Positions 5,630 through 44,225 are shown, numbered from the stretch's first letter. The stretch is DNA of 64,000 bases from a candidate division WOR-3 bacterium UBA1063 (GCA_002316275.1 DCDE01000013.1:2973-66972), one strand, 5' to 3'. The notes: generated by a model not told the origin, from the letters alone. Made by a program: numbers and translations.

Positions 5630-7352
5630 CCAAGAGCTCAAACTTAAAGGTATTCCTGTCTCTCCGGGAATTGTAATTGCTCCTGTGAAAATCTTTAAAA
5701 GAAAACGGGCCCAAGTCAAAGAGAGAATACTTAAACCGACAGAAATCGAGGACGAGGTTTCTAAGTTTACGAAAGGTACTGAAAAACTTATATCGGTGTT
5801 GAACGAACTTAAAATGGAGACTAAAGAAGAGAATCTTGCTCGACTCTTAGATGTAGAGATTTCCATTCTAAATGATACAGAGATGCAAAATGACGTAATA
5901 TTATTAATTCGAAACAAAAGACGCAATGCTGAGTCAGCCATTAGTTCAGTTTTCAATAATAGAAAAGAGTCTCTGTTGAAACATGAATCTTCTTACATGC
6001 GTGAAAGGGCAAACGAACTCGAAAGGTTGGGTATGGATCTTATAGCAATGATCAATGATGACTATTCCAGAGAAGACTTTGGATTCGATGGAATTATTGC
6101 GACAGAAAGCCTTTCCATAGAACAAGCCTTGAGAATAGTCCGCAGTAATGCAAAGGGCGTAGTTACAGAGGTAGGTGGGCGTACAGAGCATTCCGCGCTT
6201 ATCTTGAGGAATTTCGAAGTCCCGACAGTCTTTGGCATAGAAAAAATTACAAAACTGGTTGAAGACGGGGATACAATGATTCTTGATGGCGGAAAGGGAG
6301 TTGTTATAATAAATCCTATGGATTCAACTCTGAACAGGTATTTTTTCATTAAAAGCGGATATGAGAGGTATGAATCAGGTCTGGCAAGCGAGAGAGATCT
6401 TCCAGCAATAACCGTTGACGGAAAAGAAATTGGGCTCTATGCTAACATCGACATTCCGGAAGAAGCGGATAGGCTTTTAGACTTGGGAAAATATGGTATA
6501 GGATTATTCAGAACAGAGATGGTTTTCAACGAATATTCATCGGATGAAGAAAAACAGTATCAGATTTATTACGATATAGCCAAAAAAGTATATCCAAATT
6601 CTGTAACTATCAGGTCGTTTGATGTCGGGGGAGACAAGTTTTATAGCGATTACACTGAAGAAAACCCTTTCCTCGGTTTGAGAGGTATAAGAGTATTATT
6701 AGAAGAACAGGAAGTCTTCGAGAGGCAAATTAGAGCTGTTATCCGTGCCAATGTTCATAGCAACATTAGGTTTATGATTCCAATGGTGTCAAATTATGAA
6801 GAAGTCCTTGAAGCAAAAAAAATATTCCTGAGGAATAAGAAATTACTCGAGAAACAGCAAAACAATGTGAATCAGCCAAGATTTGGTGTTATGATAGAAG
6901 TTCCTTCTGCAGTTTTTATTCTCGAACACATTGCAGAGTTAGTTGATTTTGTTAGCATAGGTACAAATGACCTTACGCAATATACCTTAGCTGTTAATAG
7001 AAAAAGTTTACGGGTATCTAAATTGTTTAACCACCTTCATCCTGCTGTGTTAAAATTAATTCAGATAACAACGGATATTTGTAGGGAAAAGAATATTGTT
7101 GTAGCATCCTGTGGTGAGATGGCATCGGATCCCTACGGAGTCGTGTTACTCGTAGGTTTTGGGATCGATGAGATTTCCTGTCCTTCTTCAAGAATTTTAG
7201 AAGTAAAGTCGCTAATAAGGAGGATCAATCTCTCAGATGCTGAGCAAATTGCTGCTGAAGCCGTTAAAAAAAGCAATCATAGAGCGGTAAAAGATCTCGT
7301 TGGTGAATATCTTAAAAGTGTCATGCCAGAATTATTAGAATTCTATGAATGA
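5619..7352 (+). CDS. ptsI: PEP-protein phosphotransferase (PTS Enzyme I)
   Basis: GTG start overlaps the ptsH end by 11 nt. Phospho-His motif GGRTEHSALILR. C-terminal PEP-utilising motif CGEMASDP. Confidence 0.9.
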   Translation: MRSSQELKLKGIPVSPGIVIAPVKIFKRKRAQVKERILKPTEIEDEVSKFTKGTEKLISVLNELKMETKEENLARLLDVEISILNDTEMQNDVILLIRNKRRNAESAISSVFNNRKESLLKHESSYMRERANELERLGMDLIAMINDDYSREDFGFDGIIATESLSIEQALRIVRSNAKGVVTEVGGRTEHSALILRNFEVPTVFGIEKITKLVEDGDTMILDGGKGVVIINPMDSTLNRYFFIKSGYERYESGLASERDLPAITVDGKEIGLYANIDIPEEADRLLDLGKYGIGLFRTEMVFNEYSSDEEKQYQIYYDIAKKVYPNSVTIRSFDVGGDKFYSDYTEENPFLGLRGIRVLLEEQEVFERQIRAVIRANVHSNIRFMIPMVSNYEEVLEAKKIFLRNKKLLEKQQNNVNQPRFGVMIEVPSAVFILEHIAELVDFVSIGTNDLTQYTLAVNRKSLRVSKLFNHLHPAVLKLIQITTDICREKNIVVASCGEMASDPYGVVLLVGFGIDEISCPSSRILEVKSLIRRINLSDAEQIAAEAVKKSNHRAVKDLVGEYLKSVMPELLEFYE

Positions 7353-7827
7353 AGGATTCTCCATAGAAAGCTCTTCTCCTCGTAAAACAAAGAACATTGG
7401 AAGAAAGCTTGCAAGCCTAATCGAACCACCATTTGATATCCTGTTAAAAGGCGAGCTTGGTGCCGGAAAAACTGAATTCGTAAGAGGGTTCCTTTCATAC
7501 TGGGGGCATAAAATTGTCCGGAGTCCTTCATTTACAGTTGTGAACTCCTTTGAAACCCCTAAGTACACAGTTCACCATATCGACCTTTTTAGAATAAGAG
7601 ATACCGAAGAAATTTTAGTAAGAGGAATTTTAGATCTACTACTAGAAAATGATTCAATTAGGTTTATTGAATGGCCTGAGCTCGTGCAGGATTTTATAAG
7701 CCCGGAAAAATCTATGATGTTAGAAATTGAAATATTAGGAACACGCAGAAGAGCTTTACATTTCAGATGTATGGATAAAAAATTATTAAAAGATTTAAAG
7801 GTTTTAATACATTATGAGATTGAATGA
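7345..7827 (+). CDS. tsaE: tRNA t6A37 biosynthesis ATPase TsaE
   Basis: P-loop GELGAGKTEFVRG plus SPSFTVVN...HHIDLFRI, as in the TsaE/YjeE family. Confidence 0.8.
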   Translation: MNEGFSIESSSPRKTKNIGRKLASLIEPPFDILLKGELGAGKTEFVRGFLSYWGHKIVRSPSFTVVNSFETPKYTVHHIDLFRIRDTEEILVRGILDLLLENDSIRFIEWPELVQDFISPEKSMMLEIEILGTRRRALHFRCMDKKLLKDLKVLIHYEIE

Positions 7828-8698
7828 AGCAATAGACAGCTTTATTGCATTTATTCTTGATGAACGAGGTTTGTCACTGAATACAATTTATGCCTACAAG
7901 AGGGATCTTACGAAGTTTCTGGAGTTCAGAGGTGATGTTGATGTATCTCGATTGAATTTAGAAGACATCGATGCCTTCGCTGAATTTCTGAGTTCACAAA
8001 AGTTATCACAAAATACAAAATCCAGAATATTTTCAAGCCTCAGATCGTTCTTCAGTTACATCGAAATCGAAGAAATTTCTAAAAAGAGTATAGCCTCTGA
8101 TATTCAAGTGCCACGAAAAGTTATTAAGCTTCCCAATTTCCTCACTGAAGAAGAGGTAAACAAGCTGCTCGAGACTCCAAATTTGGACACGCCTAAAGGT
8201 ATTAGAGATCGTGCAATACTCGAATTTATGTATGCAACAGGAGTTAGAGTTTCTGAATTAACAAATTTAAAACTTCAAGATCTTCTATTTGACGAAAAAA
8301 TAGCAAGAATTAGAGGCAAAGGTGGGAAAGAACGCATAGTTCCTTTTAACGATTATGCAGAAAAGTTCTTATTACTATATATTTACGAGGCACGTTCGAA
8401 GATTTTAAAGAAGAGAGGAGAGGATAAAGTTTTCCTAAATCTAAGAGGGAACCCAATTTCAAGGGTCTCAATCTGGAAAATTTTAAAAGAATACACTCTA
8501 AAAGCTGGTATCTCTAAGAATATTTATCCACATATTCTAAGACATACGTTTGCAACCCATATGCTAAAAAATGGCTGTGATCTTCGTACGCTCCAATTAT
8601 TCTTAGGTCATTCATCGATGATCACAACTCAGATATATACTCACCTTGACAGGAAATACTTGAGGGAAGTTCATAAGAAATTTCACCCCAGGGGATAA
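7814..8698 (+). CDS. tyrosine recombinase, XerC/XerD family
   Basis: RIRGKGGKERIVP, HILRHTFATHML and LGHSSMITTQIYTHL (R-H-R-Y catalytic pattern). No mobile-element context. Confidence 0.8.
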   Translation: MRLNEAIDSFIAFILDERGLSLNTIYAYKRDLTKFLEFRGDVDVSRLNLEDIDAFAEFLSSQKLSQNTKSRIFSSLRSFFSYIEIEEISKKSIASDIQVPRKVIKLPNFLTEEEVNKLLETPNLDTPKGIRDRAILEFMYATGVRVSELTNLKLQDLLFDEKIARIRGKGGKERIVPFNDYAEKFLLLYIYEARSKILKKRGEDKVFLNLRGNPISRVSIWKILKEYTLKAGISKNIYPHILRHTFATHMLKNGCDLRTLQLFLGHSSMITTQIYTHLDRKYLREVHKKFHPRG

Positions 8699-8700
8699 AA

Positions 8701-10413
8701 CTATTCTTCTATTTTTAGATGAAGCTCTTTTAGCTGTTTTGGATCGACATCGTTAGGTGCAAGCTCAAATAAGGCTTGAGCGCTCGTAGTTTTCGGGAAA
8801 GCAATACAATCTCTTATGCTATCAAGGCGAAGAAGCATTGCAACAATTCTGTCGAATCCCAGTGCTATTCCACCATGTGGTGGTGCTCCATACTCAAGAG
8901 CCTTCATAAGGAATCCAAAATCTCTTTCAATCTTATCATCATCAAGTCCGATGAGCTTCATTATTTTCCTTTGTATATTAACGTTATGATTCCTTATTGA
9001 ACCAGACGCAATTTCAACACCGTTTAGTACAAGATCATATTGATTTCCTATTACTTTTAGAGGGTTCGTTTCAAGTATCGATATATCCTCTTCTCTTGGC
9101 TGGGTAAACATATGGTGGCACGGATCAATCCGCTGTTCCTCTTCATTCCATTCAAATAGTGGGAAATCATGTACCCAGAGAAACTTGAAATCGTCATCTT
9201 CCGGTCTAAATAAGATATTCCTTAGTTTGCCCATAAGACTGTAAGTCTTATAATCGTCTGGACCAGCAATAACAAAATATTGCCCATTATCTAAGCACGA
9301 ATACGGCGGGATATACTTTCCAAGCTGTCCTGAAAACTCTCCGCCAAAGGCATTGAAATAAAGAACACCTTCCGCTCCTTCTGCAATCATTTTATTTCTA
9401 ATATCTTCAATTTCCTTTCTTGAAAAAACCTTCTCGCTCCTCAATGCAAGGATCTTTCCTCCTTCAGCAATAATTTTACTCAGGAGTGCATTGTCTGTAG
9501 AACTAAAAATTACTGCGAGGTCGATAATTTCTTCCTTAATTCTTAGATCCGGTTTATCGCTGCCATATTTTGTAAGTGACTCATGATAACTTATTCGTTG
9601 AAAAGGGGTTGCAAGTTTTTTATTAAACAATTTATCGAATATATTGACAAATAGTTCCTCTATGAGCAAAAATATATCATCAATTTCTGGATAGCTCATT
9701 TCGAGGTCAATCTGCGTAAATTCGGGTTGCCTGTCCTGCCTCAAATCCTCGTCGCGGAAACATCTTACAATTTGAAAGTACCTATCAAAACCAGATGAAA
9801 TTAAAATTTGCTTATACAGCTGAGGTGATTGTGGAAGAGCATAGAATTTCCCTGGGAAATTTCGAGAAGGCACTATAAAATCTCTAGCACCTTCTGGAGT
9901 GCTCTTTGTAAGAAAAGGAGTCTCTATTTCTATAAATCCTTTAGAACTTAGAAAATTCCGTACCAGTTGAAGGAGTTCATGTCGAAAAACAAGATTCCGC
10001 TGCATCCGTGGTCTCCTCAAATCCAAAAAACGCCAGGAAAGTCTCGTATCTTCCTGGACTTTTACATCATCCTCAGGAAGAAAAGGAAGGGGTGGAGTAG
10101 TGTTTAGTACCTCGAAGTCTCTCACTTCAACCTCAATCTTACCTGTGGGCAATTCTGGGTTTATCATATTCTCAGGACGATTTCTCACAATCCCTTTGGC
10201 TTTTAATACGTAATAAAGGCTTACTTCCTTAGCCTGCTTAAAGACGTCAGCCCTTGATGGTTCTACAACTAACTGTACCCTTCCATACATATCTCTAAGT
10301 TCAATAAAAAGAACACCACCGAGGTCCCTGATTCTACTAACCCAACCTACAAGGGTTACTTCATTTCCAACAATAATTTCACTTAATTCTCCACAATTAT
10401 GGGTTCTTATCAT
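8701..10413 (-). CDS. aspS: aspartyl-tRNA synthetase
   Basis: Class II motifs FQIVRCFRDEDLRQDRQPEFTQID and GGIALGFDRIVAML. OB-fold N-terminus. Confidence 0.92.
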   Translation of the reverse strand: MIRTHNCGELSEIIVGNEVTLVGWVSRIRDLGGVLFIELRDMYGRVQLVVEPSRADVFKQAKEVSLYYVLKAKGIVRNRPENMINPELPTGKIEVEVRDFEVLNTTPPLPFLPEDDVKVQEDTRLSWRFLDLRRPRMQRNLVFRHELLQLVRNFLSSKGFIEIETPFLTKSTPEGARDFIVPSRNFPGKFYALPQSPQLYKQILISSGFDRYFQIVRCFRDEDLRQDRQPEFTQIDLEMSYPEIDDIFLLIEELFVNIFDKLFNKKLATPFQRISYHESLTKYGSDKPDLRIKEEIIDLAVIFSSTDNALLSKIIAEGGKILALRSEKVFSRKEIEDIRNKMIAEGAEGVLYFNAFGGEFSGQLGKYIPPYSCLDNGQYFVIAGPDDYKTYSLMGKLRNILFRPEDDDFKFLWVHDFPLFEWNEEEQRIDPCHHMFTQPREEDISILETNPLKVIGNQYDLVLNGVEIASGSIRNHNVNIQRKIMKLIGLDDDKIERDFGFLMKALEYGAPPHGGIALGFDRIVAMLLRLDSIRDCIAFPKTTSAQALFELAPNDVDPKQLKELHLKIEE

Positions 10414-35128: not shown

Positions 35129-35770
35129 TCAAAAATCTTTCGATTGAACAAGGGTGTATTTCATCACCCTTTTCCAATTTTTAAAGCCGCCTCTTAGCAT
35201 ATAACTGTTTCCATATCCCTCTTTCCTGAGCCAACTGAGGACATCCCTATCTTTGTCAGAATCAGCCACGATAATAAGGAGAATATTTTTCGGAACGCGC
35301 ATGCTCTTAATTTGGCTTTCAAAATCGTCTTTACTTAGCCAAACTGATCCCACAAGATGTTCACGTTCATAACTTTCCTTACTTCTCACATCAAGAATTA
35401 CGGTGTAATATCCCTGAAGCGCCTCTGGGTCCAAACACATTTTTAACACTTTACCTCGCAAGGTCAGATAAATCTCAGGATCTTGTTTAGAAAATGTGGT
35501 TATTTTAATATATTCAGACACTTCCCCAGAGCGCCCCTTTGTATTTAGTGATGCCCTTATCATTATGGAATCACCAGGCAGAATATACTCGGATGAATAT
35601 GTGGTATATGTACATCCACAACTCGCCCTTATGGACTTTATTTTGACTGTATCTTCTTGTGAAATGTTCTTCAGCCAAAATATCGCGCTTACAACCTCAC
35701 CTTCCTCAACTTCTCTAAAATCATACACCTCGGGGGAGGCAGCAAGTGATAAAACTAAAGATAAGAGCAA
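35129..35770 (-). CDS. DUF1573 domain fused to a rhodanese-homology domain
   Basis: ASCGCTYT (DUF1573 hallmark). C-terminal rhodanese-like fold (ILDVRSKESYEREH...LRGGFKNW) whose active-site loop reads VADSDKDR, with no Cys. TTG start with SD GGAGGTGA. Confidence 0.6.
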   Translation of the reverse strand: MLLSLVLSLAASPEVYDFREVEEGEVVSAIFWLKNISQEDTVKIKSIRASCGCTYTTYSSEYILPGDSIMIRASLNTKGRSGEVSEYIKITTFSKQDPEIYLTLRGKVLKMCLDPEALQGYYTVILDVRSKESYEREHLVGSVWLSKDDFESQIKSMRVPKNILLIIVADSDKDRDVLSWLRKEGYGNSYMLRGGFKNWKRVMKYTLVQSKDF

Positions 35771-35847: not shown

Positions 35848-35876
35848 TTGAATATGTATAGCTCAGGTTATACACT
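35848..35876 (+). promoter_or_regulatory. promoter candidate TTGAAT-17-TACACT; cyclase ATG 10 nt downstream
   Basis: TTGAAT atgtatagctcaggtta TACACT taatgtaata ATG(35887). No SD. The ORF-track TTG start at 35848 is the -35 hexamer itself. Confidence 0.4.
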
Positions 35877-35886
35877 TAATGTAATA

Positions 35887-38800
35887 ATGAAATGTCCACA
35901 ATGTGGTTCGGATAATCCTCAAAATGCCAATTTTTGTATGAATTGTGGTACATCTTTTTCTGGTATTGCAATACCAGAAAAGAGGAATGTTACAGTTCTC
36001 TTTGCAGATCTCGTAAATTTCACAAGAATAAGTGAAAATAAAGATCCTGAAGATGTTCTGAATATGCTTAATTCGATTTTTCAAGTTTTTGAAAAAATTG
36101 TTTACGAATATGACGGGACTATTGACAAATATCTTGGCGATGGTGTAATGATACTTTTTGGCGCTCCAGTAACTCATGAAGACGACTCAGAAAGAGCCAT
36201 GAGGTGTGCAATAGAAATCGTAACCAGCGTGCACAAAATTAGAGAAGAATTAAATGAGGACATTAAGATTAAAGTGTCGATAAACTCTGGATACGTAATT
36301 AGCGGTTATACGGGAGGCACCAGGAAAAAAATGTACACTGTTATCGGCGACACTGTTAACGTTGCGGAAAAAATAAATGAACTGGCAAGTCCAAGCTCAA
36401 TAGTGGTCACTGAAAATATTTATAAAGAAACTAATGGTTCATTTGAGTTTAGAAAACTTGGAAACTATGTAATACCTGGAAGGGAAGGACCCATTATGCT
36501 CTATGAATTCCTTAAGCCTAAATATGAGAAATATGTTCCTTCTACTATAAAAGGGAAACTTGTACCTCTCGTTGGAAGACAAAAAGAGCTTAGCACACTG
36601 ATAAATTTCTTGCACTCTTCACTTAATGGAGAAGGCAGAATTGTAGCAGTTATAGGAGAAGCTGGTGTCGGAAAATCCAGAATGAAGTATGAAATTAAAA
36701 ATTACTGCAATGCCTATTTGGATCTACTAATACTTGAAGCTGATTGTAGAAGTCAAGATAAAGAAGCAATCTATGCACCATTTATTGAAATTCTAAACAC
36801 ATTTTTTGATATTAAACCCTATGATGACAAAGAAACGAGACGAAATAAAGTCACAAAAATTATAGAGGATTTAAATGTTACAGAGGATATCAGTAGTGTA
36901 ATTAAGAACCTGCTGGGGTTAGAAACAGAGCTAAAACCAAAAGAAAAAATCGAAGTCTACAAAGCAGTATCTGAAATATTAAAACTTGCCTCAAAGAAGA
37001 AACCCATCTTTATAATAATTGAAGATCTGCACTGGGTTGATGATGCTTCTATTGAACTTCTAAAATTTCTCCTGGAGAAAATAAAAGAAATGCGAATGTT
37101 TTTGCTGCTTACTTACAGACCATCGCCGAAGATCTCTCTTCCTGACCTGCCGCATTTTGAAACTATAAGTCTACCAAATTTATCTAAAGAAGAATGCATA
37201 GAATTGATAAAAAACTTGCTCGAGGTAAAAGATGTCCCAAGAGAATTATCAGATCTAATTTACCAGAGAACAGAGGGGAATCCACTATTCATTGAAGAGT
37301 TAACAGAAATGCTCTACAAGGAAGAATTCCTACAAGTACAGAATGGAGCCATCGTAATATGTAATAATCTCGATTCCGCCTCCATCCCTGACAAAATTAT
37401 TAACCTTTTTTTACAAGAAATCGATAGATTGCCTCCAGATACAAAACATGTAGCAAAAGTGGCATCTGTCATTGGAAGGGAGTTTAGTAAATTGATTTTA
37501 CGAGAGGTAATCCAGGAGGAAAACCTCGAAATTCATCTTAGGCGACTTGAAGAGTCGGGCTTAGCATTCAAAGATAAGGTAAAGGAAGATTATTATGTAT
37601 TTAAACACTCTTTTGTAAGGGATGCTGCAAGTAGTCTCTTGCCAAAGAAAGAGCAGAAAGAACTCCATGCGAAAATTGGAGAGTGCTTCGAGAAAGTCTA
37701 CAAAGATCGAATCGAGGATTTTTATGAAACCATTGCATTTCACTTCGAGCTCGGGGGAAACTACCCAAAAGCGTTCCTGTATAACTACAAACTGGGGCTT
37801 AAGTTTACAAGTATTGGGATGTACTCTCCCGGATACTCGAGATTGAAAAAGGCGGAAGATATTCTGAAGAACGTCACAAAAGAGGAATTTAATACAATTA
37901 GCATTGAAGATCTGTATACACTTTATATTTCCACTGCAAAAGTTCTTCATAAGATGGGACAACTTGCAGAAGCTCTTCCAAAGTTAGACCAGGCTTTGGA
38001 TATTGCTCTCCGAATAAGTGACACGAGCAAGTTAAAAGAATGTCATAAACTAAAAATAGAGATACAATATACATTGGGGGACCTCGAATCAGCGGAATTG
38101 AGTCTTGAATCTGTTAGATCCTATATTGACAAATTTTTCTACGAATTAATAAAATTTAAGCTCTCAGCTGAAAGTGGGCTTATCGAGCCTGAGAAAACTT
38201 CCATCCAAGCTCTAAACAGGGTATTAAAAGGAAATGATAATCCTATTGAATCTGTGGAACTAGTTAATTCGTATCTCAATATGTTGTACACCTTTTCTCA
38301 GAAAGAAAAATTTGTGCCTATATTGAAGATTCTTGATGAGCTTGAAAAACAAGTTCAGCAAGAGTTAATGCCTGATTTTAAGCTTCACAAAGTTCACTCG
38401 TATATAATTTGTAGGAATTTCGAAAGAGCGAAAAACGAGGTAGAGACTCTTAGACTGTTGGTCAAACGAGAATACAATGAAGAGAAATATGCACGTTTAC
38501 TTATTGCTGATTCTATTCTTAAACGAGAAGAGGGAGAGTACGCAGAAGCGCAACAGCTCCTTAATTTTGCAAAGAGTGTCTCTGAAAAGATACCTAATAG
38601 TTATATCAAAGCAATTTCGCTTTTAGAGCTCGGAAAACTTTCATTATATTACCTCGGTGAAAGGATAAACTCTATCCAGTATTTCAACAACGCATTGGAG
38701 ACCTTTCAGGGTACTGGTGAAATGAGATACGTTGAACTATGTAAAATCCATCTTTGGCAGTCAAATTTAATAATTGGTAACCCAATCCAATATGAGCACT

Positions 38801-39471
38801 TACCTCATCCTCTAAAACTAAAAACACCTCAAAAATCCGCAAGGGTCAGTAGCTGCATTAAAGTCTTAAATGCATTAGTAAACCTGCTTTGCGGAAATAT
38901 TAATGATGCTCTCTCGTCTCTTGGGAAGACAAACTATTTTTATTGTGACTCGGAGCTCCTTATTCTCTTAGCGTATACGTTGTTGCTCCTTCCTCTATAT
39001 CTCGACGTCAATGACCTTTTAATTGAATTTGATAAAACCATGTCTGTCCTTTCAAATAGGACTGAGTCCCTCCTTGAATATGCTCATTATTACACAATAG
39101 GTATTCTCCATTCGTTACTCACTGGAAACTATGATAAAGGTATATCTATTATGAAACAAGAGGGAACTAACCCAAAGATGCGAGCCCTACGGGAAAGCGC
39201 CATAATCTGTGAAGTTGCGCCTATATTACTTGACCCTGAAAGAGACAGAAATGATAAGGCGGAAGCCATCGAAGAAAGCTTAACACAACTTGAAATCGCG
39301 AGATTCTCCATCCTCACTACTCTGTTACAGACAATCCAGTTCAAGTTGATAGAACCTTTTGAGATTCCTATTAAGACAGACAAATTACATCAACTCCAAG
39401 AAACCTTGCGAAAATTTAAATTTCGGAACTTACTTTCATCTGTTGAAAATTTGAACCGAGAGTTAAATTGA
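35887..39471 (+). CDS. zinc-ribbon / class III nucleotidyl cyclase / AAA_16 (STAND) ATPase / helical-repeat protein
   Basis: MKCPQCGSDNPQNANFCMNCG. Cyclase motifs VLFADLVNFT, DKYLGDGVMILFG and IGDTVNVAEK. Walker A GEAGVGKSR. Walker B IIIEDLHWVDDAS. EGNPLFIEEL. About 600-aa TPR-like tail. Confidence 0.8.
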   Translation: MKCPQCGSDNPQNANFCMNCGTSFSGIAIPEKRNVTVLFADLVNFTRISENKDPEDVLNMLNSIFQVFEKIVYEYDGTIDKYLGDGVMILFGAPVTHEDDSERAMRCAIEIVTSVHKIREELNEDIKIKVSINSGYVISGYTGGTRKKMYTVIGDTVNVAEKINELASPSSIVVTENIYKETNGSFEFRKLGNYVIPGREGPIMLYEFLKPKYEKYVPSTIKGKLVPLVGRQKELSTLINFLHSSLNGEGRIVAVIGEAGVGKSRMKYEIKNYCNAYLDLLILEADCRSQDKEAIYAPFIEILNTFFDIKPYDDKETRRNKVTKIIEDLNVTEDISSVIKNLLGLETELKPKEKIEVYKAVSEILKLASKKKPIFIIIEDLHWVDDASIELLKFLLEKIKEMRMFLLLTYRPSPKISLPDLPHFETISLPNLSKEECIELIKNLLEVKDVPRELSDLIYQRTEGNPLFIEELTEMLYKEEFLQVQNGAIVICNNLDSASIPDKIINLFLQEIDRLPPDTKHVAKVASVIGREFSKLILREVIQEENLEIHLRRLEESGLAFKDKVKEDYYVFKHSFVRDAASSLLPKKEQKELHAKIGECFEKVYKDRIEDFYETIAFHFELGGNYPKAFLYNYKLGLKFTSIGMYSPGYSRLKKAEDILKNVTKEEFNTISIEDLYTLYISTAKVLHKMGQLAEALPKLDQALDIALRISDTSKLKECHKLKIEIQYTLGDLESAELSLESVRSYIDKFFYELIKFKLSAESGLIEPEKTSIQALNRVLKGNDNPIESVELVNSYLNMLYTFSQKEKFVPILKILDELEKQVQQELMPDFKLHKVHSYIICRNFERAKNEVETLRLLVKREYNEEKYARLLIADSILKREEGEYAEAQQLLNFAKSVSEKIPNSYIKAISLLELGKLSLYYLGERINSIQYFNNALETFQGTGEMRYVELCKIHLWQSNLIIGNPIQYEHLPHPLKLKTPQKSARVSSCIKVLNALVNLLCGNINDALSSLGKTNYFYCDSELLILLAYTLLLLPLYLDVNDLLIEFDKTMSVLSNRTESLLEYAHYYTIGILHSLLTGNYDKGISIMKQEGTNPKMRALRESAIICEVAPILLDPERDRNDKAEAIEESLTQLEIARFSILTTLLQTIQFKLIEPFEIPIKTDKLHQLQETLRKFKFRNLLSSVENLNRELN

Positions 39472-39486
39472 TATAAAATTAGAAAG

Positions 39487-41124
39487 ATGGATATGACGAA
39501 TTTAGTTAACTTGTTCAACAAAACTTTTCGTGCATATAAAATATACCCCAAGGGTCATGATATTCCTAAATTCTTTCTTAGGCAGCTATGGGACAATGTG
39601 AAGTCAACGCTTTCTGAGGTTAACAAGATCGAATGGATCTTTGACAAAGGAAAGTGTCTCGATAGTTATGGTTCTGAGATCTGGTCAGAGGAAGAAAATG
39701 ATGACAATATCGCATGGGTATTCTACCGTTTCGGAGTCAGAGTAGTTACAATCACTCAAAATGCCTTGGTAGTAGATCTTCAGAACATCTTTGAAGCAAT
39801 TCAGAGTGCTTATGCTTCAAAAGATAAGTATTCTCTTATATATGAGATTAACCAGCGAGATTACAATGGAATCTCTTTCGAATTCATTCCTGAATTTTTG
39901 CAAGATCAAAATGTATATATTCCGGAAACGTATCAGGACCTTTTAAAGTTCAGAGAGAAGGAACCGGCCTCAGAACCTGTTGAGGTTGAAGGACAGATTT
40001 CAGCATCCATAGAGATCCCAATAATCATCGAGTCAAGGGAAGTATTCACTATTAATTCTGAAGAAGAACAGGCCCTCAATGATGAAATTTCAAAAGAGAG
40101 GGAAACATCGCAACTGGACAAATTCATGAACTACTTGTATACCATCATCGAAGTTGAACATGAAGAGGTGGTCTACAACATATTGAAATCGGTGGAAGAA
40201 TTTATCCTTGTAGACATAGGTAATTCAGGTATTCGTCGAGTTTCAAATATCCTATCTGATCTTAGAGTGCTTTCGTCTCATCTTGAAGACAAGGGAAAAG
40301 CTAGCGTCATCGAATCTCTGTTTAGAAGGCTCAGTGATCCGACACTCCTCGATACCATTGTAAGAGCCAATATAGAATCAAACCTAAAAGATCTGGAATA
40401 CTTTTTGACAAATTTGTCCGAAGACGCTGCTTTCCCGCTATTCAAAATTGCCACAGAGTTTACTCAACGAAACCAGAGACAACTCTTGCTAAGATCAATA
40501 TTAAATATCGATGGCACTGATCGGAAGAAAATCTTACAGTACATAGTATCAAACAAAAAAAATGAAAAAGTACTACTTACTGGGTTAGAATTCATAACCT
40601 TAGGGAAATTCAGCGAAATGAAAGACTTTTTAACCGAGCTTCAGCTGGAAGCTAGTCCTTCTATAAAGAAGTACCTCCTCGAAGCCATCTCTGCAATTGA
40701 AGGTGATTTAACGCCATTCTTCTACGATCCTGAACTTGATGTAAGGATGAGCACTTATATTGAAATGAAGAAAAATCCCAAAAAAGCTTTCACTAATCTC
40801 ATCTTGGAACGCCTTAAAAGCCCTGAACTGTTTTACAAACTGGATGCTCTTGAAAAAAAGCAGTTTATGAGCCTCATCCCAGAATACTTAGATTACCAAT
40901 TTGTTGAAGATACTGTCAAAAATATCCTCAACCAGAACCTCTCAATAATAAATAAGATCACAAAGTCACGAAAGTACTATGAAACCCTTCAATTTCTTAT
41001 AAACTCGCTGTTAGAATCAAACAAAAAGGAAGTATTTATCCTCCTCATTGAAACGATTAAAAGTACAAAAGATTCAAAAGTCAGAGAGATGTGTTCAGAA
41101 GCTTTGAAACAGTTAAAGGAGTAA
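39487..41124 (+). CDS. hypothetical protein with HEAT-like C-terminal repeats
   Basis: 545-aa ORF, 15 nt after the cyclase gene and 4 nt before the HD-GYP gene. Acidic central linker. C-terminal HEAT-like units (DPELDVRMSTYIEM, DSKVREMCSEALKQL). No catalytic motif recognised. Confidence 0.6.
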   Translation: MDMTNLVNLFNKTFRAYKIYPKGHDIPKFFLRQLWDNVKSTLSEVNKIEWIFDKGKCLDSYGSEIWSEEENDDNIAWVFYRFGVRVVTITQNALVVDLQNIFEAIQSAYASKDKYSLIYEINQRDYNGISFEFIPEFLQDQNVYIPETYQDLLKFREKEPASEPVEVEGQISASIEIPIIIESREVFTINSEEEQALNDEISKERETSQLDKFMNYLYTIIEVEHEEVVYNILKSVEEFILVDIGNSGIRRVSNILSDLRVLSSHLEDKGKASVIESLFRRLSDPTLLDTIVRANIESNLKDLEYFLTNLSEDAAFPLFKIATEFTQRNQRQLLLRSILNIDGTDRKKILQYIVSNKKNEKVLLTGLEFITLGKFSEMKDFLTELQLEASPSIKKYLLEAISAIEGDLTPFFYDPELDVRMSTYIEMKKNPKKAFTNLILERLKSPELFYKLDALEKKQFMSLIPEYLDYQFVEDTVKNILNQNLSIINKITKSRKYYETLQFLINSLLESNKKEVFILLIETIKSTKDSKVREMCSEALKQLKE

Positions 41125-41128
41125 CGGA

Positions 41129-42499
41129 ATGAATATCCACGATGAGAGAAACCAAACGATGATATTTACACGATTTCTGTCGGCCTTCCATAACATTAAA
41201 CTTTATGGAAGCACACATAATGTGAGTGAAAAGAGCCTTATTGAATTAAAGGATACAATAGATAGCATACTCCAAGAAAACGATGAATTTACTTTAGTAT
41301 TCAGGGGTTGGCACGTATATTTCTGTGGAGAAAGGGTAAAAATATCATCAGCTAACTTCTCGTATATAATGCAACTTATAGATTTATTTCAGGGAAAAAA
41401 TACCGGAGGAATCAAAATCTCGAAAGGTTTTACGATTCAAGAGATTAGCCTTTTTATGGAGCTTCTAACAAAAGAAAACATTACAATTGACGAGATAACT
41501 CAAAAACTTACTGAATCCGGTTGTATTTCAATTGTCGTTATTCCTCTATTTGTTCAGCCTACAGAACTGCTTGACCCAAGAAAAAGAGTAAAACAGGTCT
41601 ATTTTGAAACTATAAACCTTGTAAAAAACCTTGCAACCCAAAGTAACTTACAAAGAAGCACATATACAAAGTTTACTGTTGGAGTTTTATACTTGATTGA
41701 CACCTTAAAGACTTCAGAGAGTTTGCTCCTCGGACTTACCGTCGTTAAAAATTACGATGACTTCCTTTACAATCATTCAGTTAATACTGCAATTCTTTCA
41801 CTCTCCCTTGGAGTCAGGATTGGTCTTAAGAGTAAAGAACTTCTTCGCTTGGGCCAGTCTGCGATACTTCATGACATTGGTATGATCAATGTTCCACGTC
41901 ATATTCTAAAAAAGGAATCTCTACTCAGTGACGAAGAGTGGAGAATTGTAAAAACCCATCCTATAAGTGGGGTACAAATTGTCTTGGACCTGATGGGGCT
42001 TTCCGAAGAAACTGCGCCTATATTAATTACTGTAATTGAGCACCAGAAGGGATATGATGGTACAGGATATCCAGAATTTATTAAGAACCAAAAAATCTCT
42101 TTATATGCCCGGATAATCCAGATTGCAGACTTTTATGATGCAGTCACGACACCGAGATTCTATAATCCTATCCCTATGTCTCCAGCGGAAGCAATAGCAT
42201 ATCTTATAAGGTACTCCGGGCAACTTTTTGATCCTATCATTTCTAAACATTTTATAAATATACTTGGTATTTATCCCTTAGGAAGTCTCGTCTTTCTCTC
42301 AACGGGAGAATGGGGGCTCGTAATCGGTCAGCCACAAGATCCATCAACACTACACAAGCCCTTGGTATTAATTATCAAAGATAGTGATGGTAAAGATATA
42401 GACCACAAGATGATAGACTTGAGCCAGTCAGAAATTGAGATTATGAAAGCTGATTCCCCATGGAAGTATGGAATTGATCCTGCAGAATATTTGATTTAG
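41129..42499 (+). CDS. HD-GYP domain phosphohydrolase (variant motif)
   Basis: NHSVNTA, HDIGM, KTHP, HQKGYDGTGYP and RIIQIADFYDAVTTPRFY. SD AAGGAG 7 nt upstream. Confidence 0.8.
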   Translation: MNIHDERNQTMIFTRFLSAFHNIKLYGSTHNVSEKSLIELKDTIDSILQENDEFTLVFRGWHVYFCGERVKISSANFSYIMQLIDLFQGKNTGGIKISKGFTIQEISLFMELLTKENITIDEITQKLTESGCISIVVIPLFVQPTELLDPRKRVKQVYFETINLVKNLATQSNLQRSTYTKFTVGVLYLIDTLKTSESLLLGLTVVKNYDDFLYNHSVNTAILSLSLGVRIGLKSKELLRLGQSAILHDIGMINVPRHILKKESLLSDEEWRIVKTHPISGVQIVLDLMGLSEETAPILITVIEHQKGYDGTGYPEFIKNQKISLYARIIQIADFYDAVTTPRFYNPIPMSPAEAIAYLIRYSGQLFDPIISKHFINILGIYPLGSLVFLSTGEWGLVIGQPQDPSTLHKPLVLIIKDSDGKDIDHKMIDLSQSEIEIMKADSPWKYGIDPAEYLI

Positions 42500-42500
42500 T

Positions 42501-44225
42501 TTACTTTCTCTTAGTATTCAGAAGCTCAATCAGATCTTCTAAAGGTCTCGTATTGATAACATCATTTGGCATGAGCCATGCTCTCCTCGCCTGCCCTATG
42601 CCAAGTCTCACCATACTAAACTGACCGGTGTGGTGGGCATCGGTATTTATCACAAGTAAAACATCTTTTTCCTTCGCCTTTTTAGCATTTACATCGTTGA
42701 AGTCAAGCCTCTCGTAATAAGAATTTATCTCTATAAAGGTCTTAGTCTCAACTGCTTTTTCTATGATTGCATCAATATCAACTCTGTATCCCTCTCTCTG
42801 GCCTATCAACCTTCCGGTAGGATGTCCAATAATCGTTACAAATGGACTTTCCATAGCTTTTAAAATCCGTTCTGTGGCATCTTCGTTTTTCTTCCACATA
42901 TGGATAGAGGCAACAACAAAGTCAAGTTCAGCCAAAACTTCGTCAGGGTAATCCAGTTTCCCATCAGCTAAAATGTCAACTTCCGTGCCCTTTAACAATC
43001 TAAACCCGCCAAGTTCTGAATTTAACCTGTCTATCTCCCTATTCTTTTCCCTCAGTCCATCAATGGCAAGGCCCCCCGCATATTTAACAGACTTGGAATG
43101 GTCACATACTCCAAGATAGCTATAGCCAAAACTAATAGAATACTTTGCAAGCTCTTCGAGACTGGAACTCCCATCAGAATAACTAGAATGGACATGCAAA
43201 TCTCCCTTAATGTCTTTAAATTCAACTAAATTTGGGAGATTACCGGCCAATGCTGCTTCTACTTCGCCCTGATCTTCACGAAGTTCAGGTGGTATCCATT
43301 CCATCCCTAAAGCCCTATAGACTTCTTCTTCCTCTCTTCCAGCTACATATTTATCGCCCATAAAAACGCCATACTCAGAAACTTTCAGTCCTTTTGATTT
43401 GGCAATAGACCTCACTTTTACATTATGGCTTTTAGAGCCAGTAAAGTACTGCAAAGCCGCACCCCAAGATTCTTCTGACACAACCCTCAAATCCACCTGA
43501 TATTTGTTTTCGATTACAACCGATCCCTTGGTGTCACCGCTGGCAAGCACATCTGAAACAAGGGGGTACTGGGTAAAATATTTTATTATTTCACTCCCAT
43601 TTGGCCCTACAACAAGAATATCAATATCTCCAACGGTTTCCTTCATTCTTCTGTATGATCCACAGGGTGAAATAAATTTTACATATTCACACTTGTTCAT
43701 ATACTCGAGTAGTTCTTCTACAATGCCCATAGCAACACCAAGTGGCATTCTTTCCTGCATGCTTAGATACAGTTCCAGCCCCCTCTTAATATTTTCGATC
43801 TTTTTTTCTCCCATTCCCGGTAGCTGAAGTAATCTAGGATCATCAAGTATCTTCACAAAATCTTCCATTTTTGTAACCCTGAAGTTATCGTATATTTGCT
43901 TCAACGTTCTGGGACCAATACCTGGTACATTCATCAATATAAGGAGGTCTGGTGGAACCTGGCTCATTACCTCTTCGTATTTTTGAAATGTTCCCGTCTC
44001 GAGGAATTCTGCAATTTTTTTTGCAATGCCTTCACCAATCCCTGGTATCTTCTCAAGTCCAGATAAACCTTCCATTTTGTAAATCTCGGAAACTTCTTCA
44101 TCCATCTCATCTAAAATACGAGAAACTTTTAAATATGCTCTAACTTTGAATGGATTCTCTCCAAGAAAGTCAAGTGCACTTGCTAATTCCTCAAACCTTT
44201 TTGAGAGCATTTTGTTTATTTTCAT
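42501..44225 (-). CDS. polX: DNA polymerase X family protein with PHP domain
   Basis: HhH N-terminus, nucleotidyltransferase GDIDILV and C-terminal PHP motif HVHSSYSDG. Confidence 0.88.
   Translation of the reverse strand: MKINKMLSKRFEELASALDFLGENPFKVRAYLKVSRILDEMDEEVSEIYKMEGLSGLEKIPGIGEGIAKKIAEFLETGTFQKYEEVMSQVPPDLLILMNVPGIGPRTLKQIYDNFRVTKMEDFVKILDDPRLLQLPGMGEKKIENIKRGLELYLSMQERMPLGVAMGIVEELLEYMNKCEYVKFISPCGSYRRMKETVGDIDILVVGPNGSEIIKYFTQYPLVSDVLASGDTKGSVVIENKYQVDLRVVSEESWGAALQYFTGSKSHNVKVRSIAKSKGLKVSEYGVFMGDKYVAGREEEEVYRALGMEWIPPELREDQGEVEAALAGNLPNLVEFKDIKGDLHVHSSYSDGSSSLEELAKYSISFGYSYLGVCDHSKSVKYAGGLAIDGLREKNREIDRLNSELGGFRLLKGTEVDILADGKLDYPDEVLAELDFVVASIHMWKKNEDATERILKAMESPFVTIIGHPTGRLIGQREGYRVDIDAIIEKAVETKTFIEINSYYERLDFNDVNAKKAKEKDVLLVINTDAHHTGQFSMVRLGIGQARRAWLMPNDVINTRPLEDLIELLNTKRK

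What the first reader, a model, noticed from the sequence alone, without database searches (positions are those of the whole stretch)
35887..42499. Three-gene operon: STAND-gated class III cyclase, unknown HEAT-like protein, variant HD-GYP phosphohydrolase
Three same-strand genes sit behind their own promoter-like element, with gaps of only 15 and 4 nt. On both sides they are flanked by genes on the opposite strand.
(A) A 1194-aa protein. It has an N-terminal zinc ribbon (CPQCG...CMNCG) and a class III nucleotidyl cyclase domain. These are followed by an AAA_16/STAND NTPase (GEAGVGKSR, IIIEDLHWVDDAS, EGNPLFIEEL) and about 600 aa of TPR-like repeats.
(B) A 545-aa protein with no recognisable catalytic motif.
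(C) A 456-aa HD-GYP protein.
A cyclic-nucleotide synthase and a cyclic-nucleotide hydrolase-type enzyme are therefore co-transcribed with an unknown third component. HD-GYP enzymes are normally partnered with GGDEF cyclases (c-di-GMP) or CD-NTases, not with class III cyclases, so the nucleotide made and degraded here is not obvious. Protein A follows an effector / NTPase / repeat-sensor layout. That logic is shared by MalT/AfsR-type regulators and by NLR-like (Avs) defence proteins. The module could be a ligand-triggered second-messenger switch or a defence-type system. I know of no characterised system with this three-part composition.
Basis: partly seen in the sequence, partly recalled or inferred. 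Interest (0 to 1): 0.7.

Follow-up and report, generated by a model that had tools for sequence, protein, structure and literature searches.

The report
Cyclase added to HEAT/HD-GYP gene pair
A conserved three-gene signalling unit of uncultured WOR-3 bacteria, in which a switch-controlled adenylate-cyclase-like enzyme joined an old, widespread and undescribed gene pair (a HEAT-like protein plus an HD-GYP phosphodiesterase-type protein) whose catalytic site changed at the same evolutionary step.

Summary

Main findings:
- **B and C are an older gene pair.** They share a roughly 135-aa N-terminal domain (hhalign 93%, E 3e-7) that matches nothing in Pfam or in PDB sequences.
- **The pair is widespread.** B's family has 418 clusters at E<=1e-10. 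In 42 of 42 cyclase-less loci with enough flank, a B-type gene lies next to an HD-GYP gene carrying that domain.
- **Cyclase A joined once.** This happened in a single WOR-3 clade, and the trio persists there in two different gene neighbourhoods.
- **Other changes mark the same clade.** B carries a conserved, predicted-disordered acidic segment. C has Met for the HDIGK Lys and Gln for the second His of HHE. Alanine substitution at either position abolishes activity in the HD-GYP enzyme PmGH.
- **There are two conserved promoter-like elements**, one before A and one before B.
- **The setting is housekeeping**, with no defence-system match beyond the cyclase domain itself.

Best reading: a cAMP-type signalling module in which the B-C complex is the partner of A, with C either hydrolysing or sensing A's product. 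The chemistry is untested. This is a new variant of known kinds, of moderate interest.

The parts
35848..35876 (+). Promoter-like element of gene A: TTGAAT, 17 nt, TACACT. It ends 10 nt before the ATG, which implies a very short leader.
   Evidence: Position and 17-nt spacer are conserved in all three trio subclades. The generic scan did not flag it. Function is inferred.
35887..39471 (+). Gene A, 1194 aa: Zn ribbon, class III nucleotidyl cyclase, AAA_16 (STAND-type NTPase) and TPR-like repeats.
35890..35955 (+). A residues 2-23: zinc ribbon (CPQCG...CMNCG).
   Evidence: Pfam Zn_Ribbon_1, 30.6 bits. Conserved in all 10 orthologues.
35974..36504 (+). A residues 30-206: class III cyclase domain. 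Both metal Asp residues are present (FADL, GDG). Specificity residues are Lys plus Thr. The transition-state Asn is present, and the Arg at Asn+4 is replaced by Lys (VNVAEKI).
   Evidence: Pfam E 1e-31. Alignment to Cya2 (PDB 2w01). Orthologue alignment.
36565..37080 (+). A residues 227-398: AAA_16 NTPase with Walker A (GEAGVGKSR) and Walker B (IIIEDLHW).
37807..39468 (+). A residues 641-1194: TPR-like repeat arm. It evolves fast: only 8 residues are invariant among 10 orthologues.
   Evidence: TPR_12 and TPR_MalT hits. Conservation profile.
39451..39479 (+). Second promoter-like element: TTGAAC, 17 nt, TAAAAT. It overlaps the 3' end of A and ends 7 nt before B's ATG.
   Evidence: Listed by the scan at 9/12. 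Conserved in all trio subclades except L014/L022, where the match is weak. The same geometry lies upstream of B in the cyclase-less loci L016 and L048.
39487..41124 (+). Gene B, 545 aa: N-terminal domain, acidic linker and HEAT-like solenoid.
39487..39903 (+). B residues 1-139: alpha/beta N-terminal domain homologous to the N-terminal domain of C. Conserved motif KIYPxGHxIPxxFLRxLW.
   Evidence: hhalign 93%, E 3e-7. Same secondary-structure order in both models. An HMM built only from C sequences hits B proteins at 1e-9 to 1e-14. No Pfam or PDB match.
39904..40056 (+). B residues 140-190: acidic segment (PET..EP.SEP.E...EIPIIIESREV). It is highly conserved but predicted disordered, and is found only in cyclase-linked B proteins.
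   Evidence: Invariant columns. pLDDT below 50. A segment HMM hits only trio-clade proteins.
40057..41121 (+). B residues 191-545: all-alpha HEAT/ARM-like solenoid.
   Evidence: Model. Foldseek hits are repeat proteins only. HEAT_2 is detected in homologues.
41129..42499 (+). Gene C, 456 aa: N-terminal domain, variant HD-GYP domain and a C-terminal beta domain. An AAGGAG ribosome-binding site lies inside the 3' end of B.
41129..41554 (+). C residues 1-142: N-terminal domain shared with B.
41576..42268 (+). C residues 150-380: HD-GYP domain. It keeps PmGH-equivalent H189, H221, D222, H250, H276, D305 and the GYP motif. Changes: E185 to Phe, K225 to Met252 (41882-41884), H277 to Gln306 (42044-42046), KPG to KES, and RxxK to RxxN.
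   Evidence: Roles of these residues in PmGH are taken from PMC4159591.
42287..42496 (+). C residues 387-456: small beta-rich C-terminal domain of unknown function, conserved across the family.
   Evidence: Model. Invariant columns. No Pfam hit.

Best explanation
This is a chromosomal cyclic-nucleotide signalling module of WOR-3 (Caldifarciminota) bacteria.

**Core.** The core is an old two-gene cassette. B consists of an N-terminal domain plus a HEAT-like solenoid. C consists of the same N-terminal domain plus an HD-GYP domain. I infer that the two proteins pair through that shared domain, with B acting as regulator or scaffold of C.

**What changed in one WOR-3 lineage.** A STAND-type enzyme (A) was inserted directly upstream, with its own promoter. 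Its cyclase domain has the Lys/Thr signature of adenylate cyclases. By analogy with other STAND proteins, I infer that it is switched on when the NTPase and repeat arm drive oligomerisation, which brings cyclase domains together as dimers. At the same evolutionary step B gained a conserved acidic disordered segment, and C exchanged two residues needed for c-di-GMP hydrolysis in PmGH while keeping six of the seven metal ligands that binuclear HD-GYPs share with PmGH, and the GYP motif.

**Model I commit to.**
- A makes cAMP.
- The B-C complex is its dedicated partner.
- C has a re-tuned site and acts on A's product, as a slow or re-specified hydrolase that resets the signal.
- B couples the two.

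**Shown versus inferred.** Shown here: gene linkage, shared domain, single origin, and the co-occurring substitutions. Inferred: all protein contacts, the product, and the catalysis.
For: **Linkage.**
- The trio is present in every related locus with enough flank: L001, L002, L004-L007, L012-L014, L022.
- The flanking genes differ completely between the window-type clade and the L004 type.
- Gaps are small or the genes overlap.

**B-C pair.**
- 7 of 7 look-ups of distant family members found the pair.
- 35 of 35 HD-GYP genes with the N-terminal domain and enough flank have an adjacent B-family gene, against 0 of 17 HD-GYP genes without that domain.
- The B family is large: 1151 clusters at E<=1e-3 and 418 at E<=1e-10.

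**Shared domain.** hhalign 93%, E 3e-7; same topology in both models; cross-hits between the two families.

**Single origin.** All cyclase-linked C proteins form one clade, whose sister is a cyclase-less pair.

**Characters specific to that clade.**
- The acidic B segment occurs only there.
- HDxGM plus HQ is found in 33 of 33 clade members, against HDxGK plus HH in 84 other homologues.
- The K225A and H277A mutants of PmGH are inactive (PMC4159591).

**Constraint on C.** C is the most conserved of the three proteins: about 50% identity between subclades, against 28% for B and 32% for A. The remaining ligands are invariant. This argues for a constrained nucleotide or metal site rather than decay.

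**Cyclase A.** Lys and Thr/Ser occupy the specificity positions where the guanylate cyclase Cya2 has Glu and Gly. Both metal Asp residues and the Asn are present.

**Precedent.** A cAMP-activated GAF-HD-GYP protein, Tlr0485, shows cAMP acting on an HD-GYP protein.

**Context.** The whole 64-kb window is housekeeping.
Against: - No biochemistry exists for any member of the family.
- The three clade-specific characters trace to one node, so they count as one evolutionary event, not repeated co-occurrence.
- B-C have their own conserved promoter-like element, so A may be expressed separately.
- No HD-GYP enzyme is known to me to hydrolyse a cyclic mononucleotide.
- Loss of the K225 and H277 equivalents could simply mean that C is inactive.
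- C carries the RxxN motif, which is linked to 3'3'-cGAMP preference. A class III cyclase does not make that nucleotide.
- In the window's subclade the transition-state Arg of the cyclase is Lys, so the activity of A is not certain.
- The repeat arm of A is poorly conserved. That does not fit a fixed docking site for B's invariant acidic segment.
Confidence: 0.42

Rival explanations
1. C is a catalytically dead HD-GYP that acts as a nucleotide receptor or protein-protein regulator. The B-C complex is either the input to, or the output of, cyclase A. One version is a relay in which C binds a cyclic dinucleotide and the B-C complex then switches A on, turning a dinucleotide signal into cAMP.
For: The K225 and H277 equivalents, each essential in PmGH, are replaced by Met and Gln in all 33 clade members. 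Degenerate HD-GYP proteins such as HnoD and RpfG act through protein contacts. The RxxN motif and the retained GYP and ligand set are compatible with nucleotide binding. B gained a conserved disordered segment typical of a docking motif.
Against: Only two residues changed, and the other six metal ligands are invariant over deep divergence. Known inactive HD-GYPs are more degenerate. Gln can still ligate a metal. The repeat arm of A is too variable to be an obvious fixed docking site.
Confidence: 0.25
2. C is still a cyclic-dinucleotide (c-di-GMP or cGAMP) phosphodiesterase. The cAMP made by A only regulates it allosterically, through the shared N-terminal domain of B and C. This would be cAMP-to-dinucleotide cross-talk, as in the cAMP-activated GAF-HD-GYP Tlr0485.
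For: There is precedent for cAMP-dependent HD-GYP activity. The RxxN signature is linked to cGAMP preference in Bd2325. An unassigned N-terminal domain is available as a ligand site on both B and C.
Against: The N-terminal domain is not a GAF or cNMP-binding fold by sequence, and it predates the cyclase by a long way. The catalytic Lys and one metal His are lost exactly where the cyclase appears. No GGDEF gene or other dinucleotide synthase lies in the window or in the trio loci, although whole genomes were not available.
Confidence: 0.15
3. A is merely adjacent to B-C. It is an independent STAND cyclase that landed next to the pair and is kept there by synteny, with no shared function.
For: A and B-C each have a conserved promoter-like element. 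The B-C pair functions without A in most lineages. The association arose only once.
Against: Adjacency and order survive where all flanking genes differ, over divergence down to 28-32% identity. Changes in both B and C mark exactly the same clade as A.
Confidence: 0.1
4. The trio is an anti-phage defence system of the NLR-like (Avs) or Pycsar type. A senses infection and makes a cyclic nucleotide, and B-C are the effectors.
For: A has the effector / NTPase / repeat-sensor layout and a fast-evolving repeat arm. PADLOC PycC models match its cyclase domain.
Against: The PycC matches cover only the generic cyclase fold. There are no Avs hits for A and no PADLOC hits for B or C. No Pycsar-type effector is present. 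The locus is syntenic and sits among housekeeping genes, with no mobile elements or neighbouring defence genes. Within the clade the trio looks vertically inherited. B-C is a widespread core-genome pair.
Confidence: 0.04

Closest known systems
Cyclase-STAND proteins: class III cyclase fused to an AAA_16 NTPase and repeats. Examples are the mycobacterial Rv0386/Rv1358/Rv2488c type and the cyclase/AAA part of NCBIfam TIGR03903 'TOMM system kinase/cyclase fusion protein'.
   Same: A has the same cyclase / AAA_16 / repeat order. A residues 31-629 align to positions 284-890 of TIGR03903. There are weak matches to MalT-type STAND regulators.
   Different: The TIGR03903 score is far below its cut-off (250 against 706 bits). 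A has no kinase domain and no LuxR-type DNA-binding end. It has an N-terminal zinc ribbon. It is linked to a HEAT-like/HD-GYP pair. The comparison with the mycobacterial proteins rests on my own knowledge of their architecture and was not tested here.
HD-GYP phosphodiesterases with solved structures: PmGH (4mcw), PA4781 (4r8z), Bd1817 (3tm8), DvhD (9rbz).
   Same: The sequence matches (E 3e-24 to 2e-9) and so does the fold (Foldseek E about 1e-7). C has the HD motif, the GYP motif and six of the metal ligands. It belongs to the Y/F (binuclear-type) subfamily because the E185 equivalent is Phe.
   Different: K225 is Met, H277 is Gln, KPG is KES and RxxK is RxxN. The N-terminal domain is not GAF, DUF3391, REC or PAS. 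There is an extra C-terminal beta domain. The gene is always paired with a HEAT-like protein that shares the N-terminal domain.
cGAMP-preferring HD-GYPs (GAPs) with the Rxx(Q/N) signature: PmxA, Bd2325.
   Same: C and its nearest cyclase-less relatives have RxxN at the signature position.
   Different: The GAPs, as described, keep the canonical catalytic residues, whereas C does not. No Hypr-GGDEF or DncV-type synthase was seen near the trio. The signature varies across the wider B-C family (N, S, Q, K, R, H).
Tlr0485, a cAMP-activated GAF-HD-GYP protein. This is a comparison of how it may work, not of family membership.
   Same: cAMP controls an HD-GYP protein.
   Different: In Tlr0485 the cAMP sensor is a fused GAF domain, and no cyclase gene is reported as linked. 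Here the cyclase is the neighbouring gene and no GAF domain is present.
Degenerate HD-GYP regulators: HnoD, Xanthomonas RpfG.
   Same: Catalytic residues are substituted, and these proteins function through protein contacts.
   Different: Those are REC-HD-GYP response regulators with heavier degeneration (for example HD to SE and HHE to QLE). C keeps HD, one His of HHE, and all other ligands.
Pycsar and Avs/NLR-like defence systems.
   Same: Pycsar also uses a class III-type cyclase. Avs also has an effector / NTPase / repeat layout.
   Different: There is no Pycsar effector, no Avs model hit, no defence-island context, and the trio sits in the core genome of its clade.

Membership tests
Class III nucleotidyl cyclase (A) | Significant match to the catalytic-domain profile | tested here: met
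   Pfam Guanylate_cyc E 1.3e-31, 110 bits against a cut-off of 21.9. 54 PDB cyclase sequences match at E<=1e-5.
Class III nucleotidyl cyclase (A) | Two metal-binding Asp residues | tested here: met
   FADL and GDG are present and conserved. The only exception is one orthologue (L002) with FVDL.
Class III nucleotidyl cyclase (A) | Adenine-type specificity pair (Lys plus Asp/Thr) | tested here: met
   Lys aligns with the Glu of Cya2 (2w01), and Thr (Ser in the L004 clade) aligns with its Gly. The product itself is untested.
Class III nucleotidyl cyclase (A) | Transition-state Asn and the Arg four residues after it | tested here: inconclusive
   Asn is present. The window subclade and L014 have Lys at Asn+4 (VNVAEKI, VNVAKKM). 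The L004 subclade has Arg (VNVAKRV).
STAND / AAA_16 NTPase (A) | P-loop NTPase with Walker A and Walker B, followed by a helical region and C-terminal repeats | tested here: met
   AAA_16 E 1.8e-20. NB-ARC 24.7 bits against a cut-off of 23.5. GEAGVGKSR and IIIEDLHW are conserved. TPR_12 and TPR_MalT hits.
STAND / AAA_16 NTPase (A) | Nucleotide-dependent oligomerisation that activates the effector domain | not testable with these tools
   Requires biochemistry or cryo-EM.
HD-GYP phosphodiesterase (C) | HD and GYP motifs and the HD-GYP fold | tested here: met
   H248-D249 and G313-Y314-P315. HD_5 E 6e-28. Foldseek matches to PmGH, Bd1817, DvhD and PA4781.
HD-GYP phosphodiesterase (C) | Complete metal-ligand set (H189, H221, D222, H250, H276, H277, D305 in PmGH numbering) | tested here: not met
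   Six of seven are present. H277 is Gln306 in all 33 clade members. The H277A mutant of PmGH is inactive.
HD-GYP phosphodiesterase (C) | Catalytic D183/K225 pair (the Lys of HDIGK) | tested here: not met
   The Asp is kept (D210). The Lys is Met252 in all clade members and Lys in all others. The K225A mutant of PmGH is inactive.
HD-GYP phosphodiesterase (C) | c-di-GMP recognition motifs: KPG and Rxx(K/R) | tested here: not met
   KES and RFYN in the window. KPS and RxxS in the L004 subclade.
cGAMP-specific HD-GYP (GAP) | Rxx(Q/N) signature together with an intact catalytic site and cGAMP hydrolysis | tested here: inconclusive
   The signature Asn346 is present. The catalytic site is altered. 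Activity cannot be tested here.
HEAT repeat protein (B) | Alpha-solenoid of paired helices recognised by HEAT profiles | tested here: inconclusive
   The window's B has no Pfam hit. Its model is an all-alpha solenoid whose Foldseek hits are HEAT/ARM and designed repeat proteins, with low TM-scores. Family members are hit by HEAT_2.
Pycsar | Cyclase gene paired with a cNMP-activated effector (transmembrane or TIR) in a defence context | tested here: not met
   PycC models match only the cyclase domain. B and C have no PADLOC hit. The context is housekeeping.
Avs / NLR-like antiphage STAND | Match to Avs/bNACHT models and a variable, island-like genomic context | tested here: not met
   No such PADLOC hit. 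The locus is syntenic across genomes and the clade has a single origin.

The most novel reading that the evidence does not exclude
The cyclase-linked HD-GYP has changed its job. One possibility is that it is the first HD-GYP enzyme working on a cyclic mononucleotide, as the dedicated eraser of a STAND cyclase's product. The other is that it is a non-hydrolysing nucleotide sensor which, with its HEAT-like partner, gates a STAND cyclase, so that a cyclic-dinucleotide signal is relayed into cAMP. In either case the HEAT-like/HD-GYP pair with its shared N-terminal domain would be a new, widespread two-protein signalling unit that current HD-GYP surveys have missed.
Probability: 0.2. Interest if true: 0.75.

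Novelty: new variant of a known kind. Interest (0 to 1): 0.55.

Why it matters
HD-GYP proteins are the less understood class of cyclic-di-GMP phosphodiesterases, and many have N-terminal regions with no assigned domain.

This work points to a large, unnamed family: an HD-GYP protein that always travels with a HEAT-like partner carrying the same N-terminal domain. The partner's family has hundreds of 50%-identity clusters, and its named members come from three phyla. This implies a two-protein mode of regulation that domain-architecture surveys cannot see.

The WOR-3 trio adds a natural experiment. Where a STAND-type adenylate-cyclase-like gene joined the pair, two catalytic residues of the HD-GYP site changed and then stayed fixed. 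That gives a direct, testable handle on three questions:
- how HD-GYP specificity or activity is re-tuned;
- how cAMP and dinucleotide pathways are wired together;
- what the many orphan cyclase-STAND proteins respond to.

Tried and rejected
- **Word-indexed search with a B alignment that included distant members.** It returned no new true relatives. The exhaustive profile search was needed to see the family.
- **Metagenome scan with the broad B alignment A4.** I used the C alignment instead.
- **Rfam, whole window at gathering thresholds and the region upstream of A at E<=1.** Nothing credible, so no riboswitch.
- **Generic promoter scan.** Counts were at chance and it missed A's promoter. 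Only the comparison of orthologues was informative.
- **N-terminal domain profile against PDB sequences and Pfam.** No match. It is not DUF3391 or GAF.
- **Foldseek of the whole B model.** Only generic repeat proteins, with low TM-scores. The N-terminal domain could not be searched on its own.
- **Idea that B's acidic segment is the peptide ligand of A's TPR arm.** Weakened, because the arm has only 8 invariant residues among 10 orthologues while the segment is nearly invariant. The partner of the segment remains open; C, or the cyclase/zinc-ribbon part of A, is more plausible on conservation grounds.
- **Four apparent B-less exceptions in the survey.** These were ORF-start artefacts or a reversed gene order.
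- **Literature searches for a HEAT plus HD-GYP pair, or a class III cyclase plus HD-GYP operon.** No description found.
- **Defence reading.** Rejected on the PADLOC result and the genomic context.

Full report
**1. Observation**

The region holds three + strand ORFs:
- A: 35887-39471, 1194 aa from the ATG
- B: 39487-41124, 545 aa
- C: 41129-42499, 456 aa

The gaps are 15 and 4 nt. The flanking genes are on the - strand: a DUF1573/rhodanese gene at 35129-35770 and a PolX/PHP gene at 42501-44225.

- A has a zinc ribbon (residues 2-23), a class III cyclase domain (30-206, E 1e-31), an AAA_16 NTPase (227-398), an NB-ARC match just above its cut-off, and TPR_12/TPR_MalT repeats.
- C has HD_5/HD at 206-369.
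- B has no hit in Pfam, NCBIfam or PADLOC.

The window has about 38% G+C. Every other gene I scanned is housekeeping: GAPDH, PGK, a sigma factor, RseP, IF-2, NusA, LepA, several tRNA synthetases, LexA, Wzz and polysaccharide export. There are no GGDEF, EAL, cNMP-binding, defence or mobile-element genes apart from a XerC/D-like recombinase. Rfam finds nothing.

**2. The trio is conserved**

B's close relatives all come from WOR-3 / Hydrothermia genome bins, a phylum now named Caldifarciminota.

Every related locus with enough flank carries A-B-C in the same order.
- The window-type clade is syntenic with the window: sigma / MutL-like / RseP / DUF1573, then ABC, then PolX / Wzz.
- A second clade (L004, L005, L012, L013) has the trio between radical-SAM and methyltransferase genes on one side and a phosphoribosyltransferase gene on the other. 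Its identities to the window are about 28% for B, 32% for A and 50% for C.
- A third subclade (L014, L022) has yet another upstream neighbour.

**3. B and C are an older pair**

More distant full-length relatives of C (29-37% identity) have a 512-723-aa HEAT-like or unannotated gene directly upstream, and no cyclase within 6-7 kb. Those upstream proteins align with B along their whole length.

An exhaustive profile search shows that B belongs to a large family of proteins of roughly 510-700 aa. It finds 1151 clusters (50% identity) at E<=1e-3 and 418 at E<=1e-10, but only 4 at E<=1e-30. Where these proteins are named at all, the name is "HEAT repeat domain-containing protein", from Thermodesulfovibrionales, Thermodesulfobacteriota and WOR-3. 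Four more members looked up in different contexts are each followed directly by an HD-GYP gene.

I then surveyed 80 metagenome loci found with the C alignment.
- 51 HD-GYP genes carry C's N-terminal domain.
- All 35 of these with at least 1.6 kb of flank have an adjacent B-family gene: 34 upstream and one downstream.
- None of the 17 HD-GYP genes without that domain has one.
- Only one of the 80 loci (L022, a trio) has a cyclase.

**4. A shared, undescribed N-terminal domain**

- The first ~115 residues of B and the first ~120 of C are homologous (hhalign 93%, E 3e-7). A weak BLASTP signal had already pointed this way.
- The AlphaFold models give the same order of helices and strands for both: B residues 1-139 at pLDDT about 90, and C residues 1-140.
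- An HMM built only from C sequences hits B proteins at 1e-9 to 1e-14.
- A joint profile matches nothing in PDB sequences or Pfam.
- The domain is not among the HD-GYP-associated domains catalogued by Galperin and Chou, who describe REC, GAF, DUF3391, DUF3369 and several membrane sensors.

The rest of B is a predicted-disordered acidic segment (residues 140-187) followed by an all-alpha solenoid. The rest of C is an HD-GYP domain followed by a small beta-rich C-terminal domain.

**5. What changed when the cyclase arrived**

A neighbour-joining tree of 71 full-length C homologues places all cyclase-linked loci in one clade. Its sister, L015, is a cyclase-less pair, so A was acquired once. Two other characters mark exactly that clade.

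(i) *B's acidic segment.* The segment PET..EP.SEP.E...EIPIIIESREV is nearly invariant across the clade although it is predicted disordered. An HMM of it hits only clade members. It hits none of about 150 other family representatives and none of about 40 B-family ORFs from cyclase-less loci, even at E<=10.

(ii) *C's active site.* Against PmGH, C keeps the equivalents of D183, H189, H221, D222, H250, H276, D305, D308 and the GYP motif. It has Met for K225 (HDIGM) and Gln for H277 (EHQ). Among the 118 best homologues, all 33 with at least 49% identity have Met plus Gln, and 84 others have Lys plus His. In PmGH the H277A and K225A mutants are inactive; H277 is a metal ligand, and K225 is proposed to support the general acid D183 (PMC4159591).

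C also differs from PmGH in three further ways.
- It lacks the third-metal Glu, since the E185 equivalent is Phe. This places it in the Y/F, binuclear-type subfamily.
- It has KES in place of KPG.
- It has RxxN in place of RxxK, a signature linked to 3'3'-cGAMP preference in Bd2325.

C is nevertheless the most conserved of the three proteins. This points to a constrained, re-tuned site rather than decay.

**6. The cyclase protein**

A's closest solved relative is the Cya2 cyclase domain (2w01). Where that guanylate cyclase has Glu and Gly, A has Lys and Thr (Ser in the L004 clade), which is the adenylate-type pair. Both metal Asp residues and the Asn are present. The Arg at Asn+4 is Lys in the window's subclade and Arg in the L004 subclade.

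Walker A and Walker B motifs are conserved. Conservation is high in the zinc ribbon and cyclase domain, where about 28-30% of positions are invariant. It is very low in the repeat arm, at about 1.5%, as expected for a sensor region. PADLOC matches only generic PycC cyclase models.

**7. Transcription**

The generic scan was uninformative. Comparison of orthologues shows two conserved sigma-70-like elements with a fixed 17-nt spacer.
- **Before A.** The window has TTGAAT-17-TACACT at 35848-35876, and the L004 clade has TTGACA-17-CATAAT. The -10 element ends 6-12 nt before the ATG.
- **At the A/B junction.** The window has TTGAAC-17-TAAAAT at 39451-39479, and the L004 clade has TTGACA-17-TAAAAT. 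This element ends 6-13 nt before B's ATG (7 nt in the window). The match is weak in L014/L022.

The cyclase-less pairs L016 and L048 show the same geometry before B. The ancestral B-C promoter therefore seems to be retained, and A brought or acquired its own.

There is no terminator-like hairpin between A and B, so read-through is possible. Co-transcription of all three genes is not shown. B and C look translationally coupled: an AAGGAG site lies inside the end of B, and the gap is 4 nt.

**8. Interpretation**

The evidence shows a functionally linked unit built in two steps. I infer the following.
- B and C associate through the shared N-terminal domain.
- A is an NTP-switch-controlled adenylate cyclase.
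- In this clade the B-C complex has become A's dedicated partner, with C acting on A's product as a re-specified or slow hydrolase. Less probably, C senses a nucleotide without turnover.

A regulatory link from cAMP to an HD-GYP protein has precedent in Tlr0485, and degenerate HD-GYPs acting through protein contacts are known.

The main caveats are these.
- The clade-specific characters are one evolutionary event.
- No HD-GYP is known to me to hydrolyse a cyclic mononucleotide.
- The RxxN motif points to a dinucleotide, if anything.
- The binding partner of B's acidic segment is unknown. The repeat arm of A is too variable to be the obvious site.

The defence reading is not supported.

**9. 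Novelty and score**

All catalytic domains belong to known families. Cyclase-STAND fusions and variant HD-GYPs are known kinds.

Three things are new:
- the widespread HEAT-like/HD-GYP pair with a shared, unnamed N-terminal domain;
- its single capture of a STAND cyclase;
- the accompanying fixed substitutions at two catalytic positions.

I found no paper describing any of this. I rate it a new variant of known kinds, interest 0.55.

Noticed in passing
L016:8396-10326: Directly downstream of a cyclase-less B-C pair, on the same strand, lie folP (Pterin_bind) and cdaA (CdaA_N/DAC, the c-di-AMP synthase). This may be chance adjacency, but it puts a dinucleotide cyclase next to this HD-GYP type.
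   Followed up: no
L004:12275-15629 (also L005): About 1.2 kb from the trio, on the opposite strand, is a cluster of a 585-aa unknown protein, a 298-aa HEAT_2 protein and a 235-aa Metallophos phosphoesterase. This is a second pairing of a HEAT protein with a phosphoesterase.
   Followed up: no
window:52689-53678: A stand-alone DHH/DHHA1 protein of 329 aa. By my own knowledge this family includes NrnA/DhhP-type enzymes, so it is a possible nanoRNase or pApA / c-di-AMP phosphodiesterase. It lies 10 kb from the trio and is unlinked.
   Followed up: no
window:42497-42503: The stop codons of C (TAG, 42497-42499) and of the convergent PolX/PHP gene (42501-42503) are 1 nt apart, with no terminator-like hairpin between them.
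   Followed up: partly
L065:6506-10292: The one locus where the pair's order is reversed: the HD-GYP gene (6506-7930) comes first and a 773-aa B-like gene (7971-10292) follows.
   Followed up: partly
L021:11920-12495: A 191-aa Lactamase_B protein with a weak hit to the anti-Pycsar Apyc1 family (by my own knowledge a cyclic-mononucleotide phosphodiesterase) lies about 2.6 kb downstream of a cyclase-less B-C pair.
   Followed up: no
window:38126-38155: The best sigma-70 consensus match in the region (TTGACA-18-TAAAAT, 11/12) lies inside gene A, within the repeat-arm coding part. I did not check whether it is conserved.
   Followed up: no
window:14908-23508: Gene types that flank the trio in the distant clade (phosphoribosyltransferase, NYN_YacP, Metallophos, PRK-domain protein) lie 12-21 kb upstream of the trio in the window. 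This suggests rearrangement around the trio within the phylum.
   Followed up: partly
window:35887 and 39487 (and orthologous loci): The conserved -10 elements end only 6-13 nt before the start codons of A and B, and no clear Shine-Dalgarno site precedes either. This suggests leaderless or near-leaderless mRNAs in these WOR-3 bacteria.
   Followed up: partly
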